Assembly: GCF_044324785.1 (NCBI RefSeq)
Contig: NZ_CP172127.1
From: Escherichia coli
GTDB taxonomy: Bacteria > Pseudomonadota > Gammaproteobacteria > Enterobacterales > Enterobacteriaceae
Length of the DNA: 64,000 bases
Strand: one strand, 5' to 3'
Shown here: positions 8,729 to 11,750 of the stretch, one piece after another
Layout of the letters: each line of letters begins with the position of its first letter
How positions within the stretch are numbered: the stretch's first letter is position 1
Program-made: the position numbers and the translations under genes
Notes under the pieces: model-generated
What the model was told of the DNA's origin: nothing
Databases searched by the model: none
Seen by the model: the letters and a program-made list of their open reading frames with translations, nothing else

Positions 8729-9448
8729 TTACTGAATTTCGGTGGTGCCGTTAATTTTAAACAGGATATTCACCACAATCCCACTGCCTGGCTTACCCGG
8801 CTCATAACGCCATCTGCGCATCGCATTTTTCACCTCACGCTCAAACATGTTCGCAGGCTTGGCTGAGAGGATTTGCACGTTATCCACGCGACCATCCGGC
8901 GTGACATCAAATTTAACTTTAACCTGCCCTTCAATGCGCAATGCCTGTGCTCGTGCCGGATACTGCGGCTGATTGCGGCTTAATGCGCGTGGTCCTGAAG
9001 CCACACTTGTAACCGGCTTGCTGGTTGCAGCCGTCGCCGTACTTGATGTCGGGCGCGCGGGTGCCGTATTTTCAAACGGTGATGCCGGACGCGACTCTAC
9101 GGGTTTGACATCGCGTTTTGGCTGCTCCTGTACCTTTTTCACCGGCTTCGGTTTTGGCTTAGGTTTCGGCTTCGGCTTTTCAATGACCACCGGTGCTTCT
9201 TTTGGCGGTTCGGGGATCGGCTCAGGTTCCGGTTCTGGCTCTACCACCGGCTCCGGTGGCGGCTGAACGGCTTGTGGCGGTTCGAGATCCGCAGGCGCAA
9301 CCATCGTGACAGAAATTGGCTGCGCAGGCGCAGGTAGTTCAATAACCTGATGTACCGAGGTATAGAGCAGACCCGCCACAACAGCACCATGAATGCAGAC
9401 CGAAAGTAACGTCGGCCAGGGGAAGCGGCGAGGTAAATCAAGGGTCAT
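8729..9448 (-). CDS. tonB: TonB energy-transducing protein
   Basis: Track ORF extends to 9499; start placed at [17 protein letters not shown] (ATG at 9446..9448 on minus strand) to give the 239-aa TonB with its (EP)n/(KP)n proline-rich spacer. Confidence 0.95.
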
Positions 9449-10019: not shown

Positions 10020-10268
10020 GCCTTTCCTTATAGGTCGGTCAGTGCATTCACCCCCACAAGCAGATAATAACTTTATCTGTATTTCTTTATATGATGTGAG
10101 CATATTCAGGAAAAATGCCCTTTCCTGACGCAGAGTTGCTCACTCAAAACCTTTGATTACTGCGGATAAAGTCATCTACTATTGTTTAACACATTCACGC
10201 GCTGCATGTATGTTCAGAAAATGTGCACGCTAAGATAATTAAACAAAATTGTGGTTACAGAGGTATCA

Positions 10269-11522
10269 GTGAGTCACTGGGCTACATTCAAACAAACAGC
10301 AACTAATTTATGGGTGACCCTACGGCACGACATTCTCGCGCTGGCCGTCTTTTTAAATGGATTGCTTATTTTTAAAACAATCTATGGTATGTCGGTCAAT
10401 TTGCTAGATATTTTCCATATCAAAGCATTTTCAGAGTTGGATCTCTCCTTGCTGGCAAACGCCCCACTATTTATGCTCGGCGTCTTTCTTGTCCTGAACT
10501 CCATTGGCTTACTGTTCCGGGCAAAGCTCGCATGGGCAATCAGTATCATTTTGTTGTTGATAGCGCTAATTTACACCCTGCATTTTTATCCCTGGCTGAA
10601 ATTTAGTATTGGATTTTGCATTTTTACGCTGGTGTTTTTGCTGATACTGCGCAAAGACTTCTCCCACAGTAGCGCCGCAGCCGGGACAATTTTCGCATTT
10701 ATTAGTTTCACGACGTTACTGTTTTACTCCACCTACGGTGCGCTTTATTTAAGCGAAGGTTTTAATCCGCGAATAGAAAGTTTGATGACCGCGTTCTATT
10801 TTTCGATAGAAACCATGTCAACCGTCGGCTATGGCGATATTGTCCCTGTTTCTGAATCAGCACGATTGTTCACTATTTCGGTCATTATTTCCGGCATTAC
10901 CGTTTTTGCCACCTCTATGACCTCAATTTTTGGTCCGCTTATCCGCGGGGGATTCAACAAACTTGTAAAAGGAAACAATCATACAATGCATCGTAAAGAT
11001 CATTTTATTGTTTGCGGACATTCGATTCTCGCCATCAATACGATCCTGCAACTGAATCAACGCGGACAAAACGTAACGGTTATCAGCAACTTGCCTGAAG
11101 ATGATATCAAGCAACTTGAGCAACGCTTAGGCGATAACGCTGATGTTATCCCCGGTGACAGTAATGACAGTTCAGTATTAAAGAAAGCGGGAATCGATCG
11201 ATGCCGGGCCATTCTGGCGCTGAGTGATAACGATGCAGATAACGCGTTTGTTGTACTCTCGGCAAAAGATATGAGCAGTGATGTCAAAACAGTTCTCGCC
11301 GTCAGTGATAGCAAAAACCTGAATAAGATTAAGATGGTACATCCGGATATCATTCTCTCGCCGCAACTGTTTGGCAGCGAAATTCTGGCGCGAGTTTTAA
11401 ATGGTGAAGAGATTAATAATGATATGCTCGTTTCAATGTTGTTGAACTCCGGTCATGGCATTTTCAGCGATAACGATGAACAAGAAACGAAAGCTGACAG
11501 TAAAGAATCGGCGCAAAAATAG
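10269..11522 (+). CDS. kch: Voltage-gated K+ channel Kch (6TM pore with TVGYGD filter plus RCK/TrkA-N domain)
   Basis: Start placed at GTG 10269 (VSHWATFKQ…) to give 417 aa; selectivity filter TVGYGD and Rossmann motif IVCGHS visible. Confidence 0.9.
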   Translation: MSHWATFKQTATNLWVTLRHDILALAVFLNGLLIFKTIYGMSVNLLDIFHIKAFSELDLSLLANAPLFMLGVFLVLNSIGLLFRAKLAWAISIILLLIALIYTLHFYPWLKFSIGFCIFTLVFLLILRKDFSHSSAAAGTIFAFISFTTLLFYSTYGALYLSEGFNPRIESLMTAFYFSIETMSTVGYGDIVPVSESARLFTISVIISGITVFATSMTSIFGPLIRGGFNKLVKGNNHTMHRKDHFIVCGHSILAINTILQLNQRGQNVTVISNLPEDDIKQLEQRLGDNADVIPGDSNDSSVLKKAGIDRCRAILALSDNDADNAFVVLSAKDMSSDVKTVLAVSDSKNLNKIKMVHPDIILSPQLFGSEILARVLNGEEINNDMLVSMLLNSGHGIFSDNDEQETKADSKESAQK

Positions 11523-11576: not shown

Positions 11577-11750
11577 TTAGATATTGTAGATCGCAAACAA
11601 TAACGAGTTACGCTGTTTGTTTAGAATGCACTTCCTGATGCTGTGGATACGCATATTTCGGCGCGATTGCCCCTCAAGCCAACGCGATTTACGTCGGCTA
11701 GCCTGACGCTGCATGCGCCAGCGCCCCACTTCCGTTCTACTCCGCTTCAT
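11577..11750 (-). CDS. yciY: Small arginine-rich basic protein (57 aa), resembles YciY
   Basis: ATG at 11748..11750 (minus strand) gives MKRSRTEVGRWRMQRQASRRKSRWLEGQSRRNMRIHSIRKCILNKQRNSLLFAIYNI; the track ORF 11577..11861 over-extends. Gene name is from memory and uncertain. Confidence 0.5.
   Translation of the reverse strand: MKRSRTEVGRWRMQRQASRRKSRWLEGQSRRNMRIHSIRKCILNKQRNSLLFAIYNI

What the first reader, a model, noticed from the sequence alone, without database searches (positions are those of the whole stretch)
10269..11522. Kch has an in-frame internal Met at the start of its RCK domain
The channel gene has an in-frame Met (…KGNNHTMHRKDHFIVCGHS…) just before the Rossmann-fold RCK domain. 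Internal initiation there would give a soluble RCK domain co-assembling with the full-length channel, as described for this family. The start of the full-length protein is GTG, not the upstream ATG in the track.
Basis: partly seen in the sequence, partly recalled or inferred. Interest (0 to 1): 0.2.

Follow-up and report, generated by a model that had tools for sequence, protein, structure and literature searches.

The report
Known internal start in E. coli kch
The E. coli potassium-channel gene kch has a second, in-frame start codon just before its cytoplasmic regulatory domain, which can yield that domain as a separate soluble protein; this is real and conserved in relatives, but it was already described about twenty years ago.

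Summary
Window 10269..11522 (+) is E. coli kch (417 aa). It starts at a GTG with a good Shine-Dalgarno (SD) sequence. Codon 240 is an in-frame ATG (10986-10988), six codons before the Pfam TrkA_N/RCK domain and one residue before the first residue of PDB 1ID1. It is the only internal in-frame start-like codon in the gene with a recognisable SD-like sequence (AAAGGAAA, about 11-12 nt upstream).

In 74 homologous loci (35-98% identity), 70 keep an ATG or GTG within five codons of the invariant Arg242. Where Val replaces Met and no ATG is adjacent, the codon is always GTG. SD-like strength upstream is in the top 4% of in-gene positions (median), and exceeds what synonymous-codon resampling predicts. 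The site therefore looks like a selected internal translation start that yields a 178-aa soluble RCK protein.

This is already in the literature, for MthK M107 and for E. coli Kch (Jiang 2001; Kuo 2003; Roosild 2009; Kuang 2015). What is not established for Kch is whether the soluble RCK co-assembles with the channel or is needed. Published work says that removing the internal start did not change channel function, and electron crystallography suggested no gating ring. Interest is low.

The parts
10269..11522 (+). kch coding sequence (417 aa + stop), a 6TM + RCK potassium channel
   Evidence: ORF. RefSeq annotation of a 99.8%-identical chromosome maps to exactly these coordinates. Pfam Ion_trans_2 and TrkA_N.
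10260..10271 (+). Primary initiation site: SD GAGGT (10260-10264), spacer, GTG start (10269-10271)
   Evidence: Strongest SD-like pairing of any in-frame start-like codon in the gene (-7.1 kcal/mol). cagaggtatcaGTG is identical in E. albertii and in the 83%-identical homolog L082.
10206..10238 (+). Upstream in-frame ATGs (10206, 10221), closed by TAA 10236-10238; not part of Kch
   Evidence: Read directly from the sequence. The ORF lister opens the frame only at 10251.
10821..10838 (+). K+ selectivity filter TVGYGD (aa 185-190)
   Evidence: Translation. V186, G187, G189 and D190 are invariant in alignment A1. Ion_trans_2 hit.
10968..10975 (+). SD-like AAAGGAAA (core AAGGA 10969-10973), formed by codons Lys234-Gly235; 12 nt between AGGA and the ATG
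   Evidence: -5.6 kcal/mol against the 16S 3' end, second best in-frame site in the gene and in the top 2.6% of in-gene positions. Spacing is at the long end of the usable range.
10986..10988 (+). Internal in-frame start codon ATG (Met240)
   Evidence: Sequence. The column is conserved in 99 full-length homologs. 70 of 74 loci have ATG/GTG within 5 codons of Arg242. An 80-nt stretch around it is >=99% identical in 5351 of 5422 E. coli records.
10986..11522 (+). Nested ORF for the soluble RCK protein (178 aa + stop)
   Evidence: Its translation hits TrkA_N at aa 7-126, E 8e-21. PDB 1ID1 starts at the residue after Met240.
11004..11363 (+). TrkA_N / RCK Rossmann-fold domain (aa 246-365)
   Evidence: Pfam PF02254, E 6.5e-20. 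PDB 1ID1 is 100% identical over aa 241-393.

Best explanation
kch carries a nested, in-frame internal translation initiation site at Met240, in the linker between the inner pore helix and the RCK domain. Ribosomes that bind the weak SD-like AAGGA (10969-10973) in a locally A/T-rich, weakly structured stretch start at ATG 10986. They make a 178-aa soluble RCK protein with the same sequence as the C-terminal domain of the full-length channel. One gene therefore gives two products: the membrane channel from GTG 10269 and free RCK from ATG 10986.

Shown here: the start codon, the SD-like sequence, their conservation and the synonymous-site bias across the family. Taken from the literature: a short second product exists and depends on this ATG. 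Inferred by analogy with MthK: the free RCK pairs with tethered RCK domains, as hinge dimers or an octameric ring, and so tunes gating. That last step is unproven for Kch and may be dispensable under laboratory conditions.
For: In E. coli kch, Met240 is the only internal in-frame ATG/GTG/TTG with an SD-like match. It scores -5.6 kcal/mol, against -3.9 or weaker for all the others and -7.1 for the true start. The opening energy of the -20..+12 region is 7.3 kcal/mol against a gene mean of 11.2 (12th percentile), and the stretch is 71% A+T against 57% for the gene.

Across 99 full-length homologs the Met column is kept while its neighbours vary. In 74 genomic loci, 70 have ATG/GTG within 5 codons upstream of the invariant Arg242, and the start codon moves between columns (-1, -2, -3, -5) in different clades. 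When Val replaces Met without an adjacent ATG, the codon is GTG in all 4 independent clades. The single GTC is followed directly by ATG.

Over 42 clusters (70% identity), SD-like strength upstream of the candidate start has a median rank in the top 3.7% of in-gene positions. The conserved control Met183 ranks at 67% and other internal ATGs at 49%. The observed mean is -7.12 kcal/mol, against -5.16 expected from synonymous resampling (Wilcoxon 7e-7, Fisher 2e-4). Median SD-to-start spacing is 8 nt.

PDB 1ID1 begins at residue 241. [quoted passage not shown] PMC2920069 notes that Kch homologs invariably have a Met in this linker. From my own memory, not verified here, the abstract of Kuo, Saimi & Kung 2003 (EMBO J 22:4049) says that changing the internal ATG removes kch's short second product.
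Against: For E. coli alone the SD-like sequence is weak and lies 11-12 nt from the ATG. It is explained by the conserved Lys-Gly dipeptide (synonymous-resampling p = 0.25), so the single-gene evidence is not significant. I could retrieve no native-level evidence of initiation: kch is absent from the text of the Ribo-RET preprint and from the held supplements of the TetRP and TRAINSPOTTER studies, probably because kch is poorly expressed. The 42 clusters are still phylogenetically related, so the p-values are optimistic. On function, removing the internal start reportedly did not change Kch expression or function, and electron crystallography suggested a free RCK arrangement rather than a ring.
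Confidence: 0.8

Rival explanations
1. Met240 is conserved for a structural reason, as a hydrophobic residue capping the first strand of the RCK fold. The SD-like sequence would be a by-product of the conserved basic, Gly-rich linker (Lys-Gly, Arg-Arg-Lys), and there would be no meaningful internal initiation in vivo.
For: Lys234-Gly235 is conserved at the protein level and by itself encodes AARGGN. Synonymous resampling already gives an expected -5.16 kcal/mol, stronger than typical coding sequence. For E. coli alone the resampling p is 0.25. No genome-wide initiation dataset that I could query lists kch.
Against: The start codon is not fixed to one column; it shifts by 1-5 codons between clades. 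Val substitutions use GTG in every clade that lacks an adjacent ATG. Observed SD strength exceeds the synonymous expectation across clusters (Wilcoxon 7e-7). The equally conserved Met183 shows no SD enrichment (median rank 67%). The literature reports expression of a soluble RCK from the internal Met.
Confidence: 0.1
2. Internal initiation happens, but the soluble RCK is a functionally neutral or merely tolerated by-product in E. coli. The Kch channel would gate with its four tethered RCK domains alone, with no MthK-like octameric ring.
For: [quoted passage not shown] PMC4565861 says that electron crystallography of Kch suggested RCK domains exposed to solvent and not interacting as in octameric rings. 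MthK's M107 aligns with Kch V233, not M240, so the two starts are not positionally homologous.
Against: The family-wide maintenance of start codon plus SD-like sequence, including synonymous bias, argues for purifying selection on the second product. The published tests used over-expressed gain-of-function mutants and detergent-solubilised 2D crystals, not native regulation. The wording of the Kuo 2003 result is second-hand here.
Confidence: 0.35
3. The short product comes from a separate internal transcript or from proteolysis in the linker, not from ribosomes starting inside the full-length mRNA.
For: The linker is exposed and basic, so it is a plausible protease site. Nothing here measures transcripts.
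Against: There is no sigma-70-like promoter on the + strand inside kch upstream of 10986; the only + strand hit in that stretch is upstream of the gene at 10186-10214. Conserved ATG/GTG plus SD-like sequence is what initiation predicts and what proteolysis does not. From memory of Kuo 2003, mutating the ATG removes the product.
Confidence: 0.05

Closest known systems
E. coli Kch (UniProt P31069; RCK structure PDB 1ID1) and its described internal start at Met240
   Same: It is this gene. The sequence is 99.8% identical to E. coli chromosomes at the DNA level. The protein is 100% identical to cluster P0001, which has 4870 members, and to 1ID1 over aa 241-393. The internal start is discussed in PMC2920069 and PMC4565861.
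   Different: Nothing at the sequence level. The quantitative cross-family analysis done here (SD synonymous bias, GTG-for-Val) adds detail to what Roosild 2009 Fig. 1A showed only as conserved Met residues.
MthK (Methanothermobacter Ca2+-gated K+ channel), internal start Met107
   Same: The pore domain is followed by a linker and then an RCK domain. An in-frame Met in the linker gives a soluble RCK that co-purifies with the channel. Crystallographers use M107I to suppress it, and the PDB sequences show both MKLMGL and MKLIGL. Identity to Kch over pore plus RCK gives E about 1e-17.
   Different: MthK has 2 TM helices, Kch has 6. M107 aligns with Kch V233, 7 residues upstream of M240, so the starts are analogous but not in the same column. 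The MthK RCK has an extra C-terminal subdomain and binds Ca2+, whereas the Kch ligand is unknown. The octameric ring is shown for MthK, not for Kch.
Other bacterial genes-within-genes with in-frame internal starts (infB IF2 isoforms, arcB ArcB-C, rpn antitoxins)
   Same: A 3'-proximal in-frame internal start releases a C-terminal domain as a separate soluble protein from the gene of a larger, often membrane-bound, protein (Ribo-RET preprint; PMC10400941 listed).
   Different: Those were detected by initiation-complex profiling at native expression. kch was not found in the datasets I could query.
KefC / Kef K+ efflux systems with C-terminal KTN domain
   Same: A membrane K+ transport domain is covalently linked to a KTN/RCK domain.
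   Different: According to PMC2920069, Kef linkers lack a suitably placed internal start codon. This absence is the contrast that makes the presence of a start in Kch informative.

Membership tests
Kch-type K+ channel (pore + C-terminal RCK/KTN) | K+ selectivity filter T-V-G-Y-G-D within a pore domain | tested here: met
   TVGYGD at aa 185-190. Pfam Ion_trans_2, E 6e-16.
Kch-type K+ channel (pore + C-terminal RCK/KTN) | C-terminal RCK/KTN Rossmann-fold domain | tested here: met
   Pfam TrkA_N, E 6.5e-20, aa 246-365. 100% identity to PDB 1ID1.
Kch-type K+ channel (pore + C-terminal RCK/KTN) | Orthology with E. coli kch (same locus: yciI-kch-yciY-cls) | tested here: met
   Present in 5420 of 5426 E. 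coli genomes, annotated kch, with the same neighbours.
Dual-product RCK channel genes (MthK-type internal initiation) | In-frame start codon in the linker between the inner helix and the RCK domain | tested here: met
   ATG 10986-10988 = Met240, 6 codons before TrkA_N. 70 of 74 homologous loci have ATG/GTG within 5 codons of Arg242.
Dual-product RCK channel genes (MthK-type internal initiation) | Ribosome-binding context (SD-like sequence, accessible mRNA) at the internal start | tested here: met
   AAGGA, -5.6 kcal/mol, top 2.6% in the gene, but 11-12 nt spacing. Opening energy at the 12th percentile. Family-wide enrichment and synonymous bias.
Dual-product RCK channel genes (MthK-type internal initiation) | A short protein is actually made from the internal start | not testable with these tools
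   Literature only. PMC4565861 cites Jiang 2001 and Lundback 2009 for Kch. The primary paper, Kuo 2003, was not readable. There is no kch entry in the initiation-profiling or N-terminomics data I could query.
Dual-product RCK channel genes (MthK-type internal initiation) | Soluble RCK co-assembles with tethered RCK into an octameric gating ring required for gating | not testable with these tools
   The literature for Kch points the other way or is unresolved: removal of the start had no effect, and electron crystallography suggested a free RCK arrangement. No full-length Kch structure is in the PDB copy.

The most novel reading that the evidence does not exclude
The internal start, together with its SD-like sequence, is under purifying selection across the whole proteobacterial 6TM-RCK Kch family. 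The evidence is synonymous-site bias towards SD, GTG used whenever Val replaces Met, and a start codon that hops between linker columns. If so, the free RCK subunit is physiologically needed in nature, perhaps to set a regulated tethered:free RCK ratio, even though E. coli laboratory assays found it dispensable.
Probability: 0.5. Interest if true: 0.3.

Novelty: already known. Interest (0 to 1): 0.12.

Why it matters
It matters little as a discovery, because the internal Met of Kch and of its paradigm MthK has been in the channel literature since 2001-2003. It has practical relevance. Annotation pipelines list only one product for kch, so proteomics and structural work need to remember the second one; crystallographers mutate the equivalent Met in MthK. 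The open question is whether the free RCK has a role in Kch gating. That question is relevant to recent work linking Kch to membrane-potential signalling in E. coli biofilms (PMC11928028), which does not mention the RCK domain at all. The family-wide conservation measured here is a modest argument that the second product is not an accident.

Tried and rejected
(1) I could not read the primary paper, Kuo et al. 2003; neither the PMC id nor the DOI is held. What I say about its abstract is marked as memory, and the second-hand statement in PMC2920069 is what I cite.

(2) Literature searches for 'Kch' with 'M240', and for 'M240L', 'Met240' and similar, returned only unrelated papers.

(3) The Ribo-RET preprint has no held supplement and does not mention kch in its text. 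The held supplements of TetRP and TRAINSPOTTER have no kch or b1250 entry. So there is no native-level evidence either way.

(4) An internal promoter for a separate RCK transcript was rejected. The consensus scan found no + strand hit inside kch, and the total number of hits is no higher than in shuffled sequence.

(5) An alternative full-length start was rejected. GTG 10251 has no SD (-1.2 kcal/mol) and is GCG in E. albertii. ATG 10206 and ATG 10221 are closed by TAA 10236.

(6) The out-of-frame TTG-TAA 'start-stop' at 10963-10968 has the strongest SD-like match in the gene. I considered it as a possible ribosome standby element and rejected it as probably chance, because it is absent from the 83%-identical homolog.

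(7) Positional homology between Kch M240 and MthK M107 was rejected. The phmmer alignment puts M107 opposite V233.

Full report
WHAT IS THERE

Window 10269..11522 on the + strand is the E. coli potassium-channel gene kch. The 1.8-kb region is 99.8% identical to E. coli chromosomes and is present in 5420 of 5426 complete genomes. RefSeq annotates kch ('voltage-gated potassium channel protein') at exactly these coordinates, between yciI and yciY/cls.

The 417-aa product has a pore domain (Pfam Ion_trans_2, aa 149-221; filter TVGYGD at aa 185-190) and a C-terminal TrkA_N/RCK domain (aa 246-365, E 6.5e-20). [quoted passage not shown] No full-length Kch structure is in the PDB copy.

THE TWO START CODONS

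The full-length start is GTG at 10269-10271 (M-S-H-W-A-T-F). It is preceded by GAGGT at 10260-10264. Of all in-frame ATG/GTG/TTG codons in and just upstream of the gene, it has the strongest pairing to the 16S 3' end (-7.1 kcal/mol). The motif cagaggtatcaGTG is identical in E. albertii and in an 83%-identical homolog from a different genomic neighbourhood.

The frame is open from GTG 10251, but that codon has no SD (-1.2 kcal/mol) and is GCG in E. albertii. The two in-frame ATGs further upstream (10206, 10221) are closed by TAA at 10236-10238. The 'upstream ATG' is not a real alternative.

The internal Met in ...KGNNHT-M-HRKDHFIVCG... is codon 240, ATG 10986-10988, in frame. It is six codons before the Pfam RCK boundary and one residue before the first residue of 1ID1.

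IS THE INTERNAL ATG A PLAUSIBLE INITIATION SITE IN E. COLI?

It is the only internal in-frame start-like codon in kch with a recognisable SD-like element. That element is AAAGGAAA at 10968-10975, scoring -5.6 kcal/mol; every other internal in-frame candidate scores -3.9 or weaker. This puts it in the top 2.6% of all in-frame positions in the gene.

The spacing is long, with 12 nt between AGGA and the ATG (11 nt by the duplex calculation). The site should therefore be weak.

The surrounding mRNA is A/T-rich (71% against 57% for the gene). It is also cheaper to open than most of the gene: 7.3 kcal/mol against a mean of 11.2, which is the 12th percentile.

A consensus scan found no sigma-70-like promoter on the + strand inside kch. 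A separate transcript is therefore not indicated.

Taken alone, the E. coli SD-like sequence is not significant. It is formed by the conserved Lys234-Gly235 codons, and resampling synonymous codons gives an equal or stronger match 25% of the time.

COMPARATIVE EVIDENCE

A protein search returned homologs from 100% down to about 37% identity. In 99 full-length sequences the Met240 column is kept while the four preceding residues vary freely.

I then fetched 80 genomic loci, of which 74 were analysable, and examined the DNA.

- Start codon presence. 70 of 74 loci have an in-frame ATG or GTG within five codons upstream of the invariant Arg242. The position varies by clade: -2 in 51 loci, -1 in 10, -3 in 1 and -5 in 8. 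A residue conserved for structural reasons would not move like this. A start codon can.
- Val substitutions. Where Val occupies the Met column and no ATG is adjacent, the codon is GTG in all four independent clades (Pandoraea, Paraburkholderia, and two MAG lineages). GTG makes up only 32-71% of the other Val codons in those genes. The single GTC (L018) is followed directly by ATG.
- SD-like strength. After collapsing the loci to 42 clusters at 70% identity, SD-like strength in the -20..-4 window has a median rank in the top 3.7% of in-gene positions, and 57% of clusters fall within the top 5%. The equally conserved Met183 ranks at a median of 67%. The 591 other internal ATGs rank at 49%.
- Synonymous bias. 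Holding the amino-acid sequence fixed and resampling synonymous codons from each gene's own usage gives an expected -5.16 kcal/mol, against -7.12 observed (Wilcoxon 7e-7; Fisher combined 2e-4). Examples include AGG/AGA Arg codons spelling AGGAGG or GGAGA in GC-rich genomes.
- Spacing. The median SD-to-start spacing is 8 nt.

There are caveats. The clusters are still related, so the p-values are optimistic. Part of the SD-likeness is a by-product of a basic, Gly-rich linker.

WHAT IT MOST LIKELY DOES

The best-supported reading is a nested internal translation start. It yields a 178-aa soluble RCK protein (10986..11522) in addition to the full-length channel.

- Shown here: the signals and their conservation.
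- From the literature: soluble RCK is expressed from the internal Met (PMC4565861, citing Jiang 2001, Lundback 2009 and others). Kch-type linkers 'invariably contain methionine residues' whereas Kef linkers do not (PMC2920069, Fig. 1A legend).
- From my own memory, unverified because the paper is not held: the abstract of Kuo, Saimi & Kung 2003 states that changing the internal ATG removes kch's short second product but does not erase the gain-of-function toxicity.
- Inferred only by analogy with MthK, where Met107 gives a soluble RCK that co-purifies and forms an octameric ring: the free RCK pairs with the tethered RCK domains.

For Kch this last step is doubtful. [quoted passage not shown] In addition, the phmmer alignment places MthK M107 opposite Kch V233, not M240. 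The two internal starts lie in the same linker but are not positionally homologous.

NATIVE-LEVEL EVIDENCE

I found none that I could use. The Ribo-RET preprint does not mention kch and its tables are not held. The held supplements of the TetRP and TRAINSPOTTER studies contain no kch or b1250 entry, for either start. That fits the poor expression of kch in laboratory culture and says nothing for or against the site.

VERDICT

It is not established for Kch that the soluble RCK co-assembles with the channel or is required.

Novelty: already known. The only increment here is a quantitative, family-wide demonstration that start codon and SD-like sequence are co-maintained. That argues mildly that the second product is selected for, not accidental.

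Interest is low (0.12).

Noticed in passing
window 10948-10968: There is an out-of-frame minimal 'start-stop' (TTG 10963-10965, then TAA 10966-10968). It is preceded by GGGGGA (10948-10953), which gives the strongest SD-like pairing anywhere in kch (-8.6 kcal/mol), and it sits 23 nt upstream of the internal ATG. It is not conserved in the 83%-identical homolog L082 (CTAGTGAAA), so it is probably chance.
   Followed up: partly
protein cluster P0009 (kch allele); corresponds to window ~11170 onward: A frameshifted kch allele of 319 aa is identical to Kch up to GDSNDS (aa 301) and then diverges, truncating the RCK domain. Its cluster has 593 member sequences, against 4870 for the intact protein. 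This suggests kch is a pseudogene in some E. coli/Shigella lineages.
   Followed up: no
window 11577-11750 (- strand): yciY, a 57-aa small protein gene, lies antisense-oriented between kch and cls. The mechanical ORF list extends it to 94 aa. One genome (H8, NZ_AP043969.1) has an IS1 transposase among the features under the match, so the IS1 insertion lies somewhere within the kch-yciY stretch.
   Followed up: no
L082 / L083 (homolog P0006, 83% identity): This close kch homolog sits in a completely different neighbourhood (xanthine/uracil permease, a SnoaL_2 protein, and hcr/hcp-like genes) from the E. coli yciI-kch-yciY-cls locus. In addition, 13-14 kch matches in E. coli assemblies lie on plasmids. 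Both fit the published view (PMC2234077) that kch has moved laterally.
   Followed up: no
window ~8729-9448 (- strand), tonB: The neighbouring tonB gene is listed in the Ribo-RET preprint among genes with an out-of-frame internal initiation site showing synonymous-site conservation (Figure S4 legend). I did not examine it here.
   Followed up: no
L016, L020, L064, L073 (Acidithiobacillus and MAG homologs): A few homologs have no ATG/GTG within 5 codons of the Arg242 equivalent; the nearest is 8-12 codons upstream, with weak SD-like scores. These may be lineages that lost the internal start, or that use a start my rule missed (CTG/TTG).
   Followed up: no
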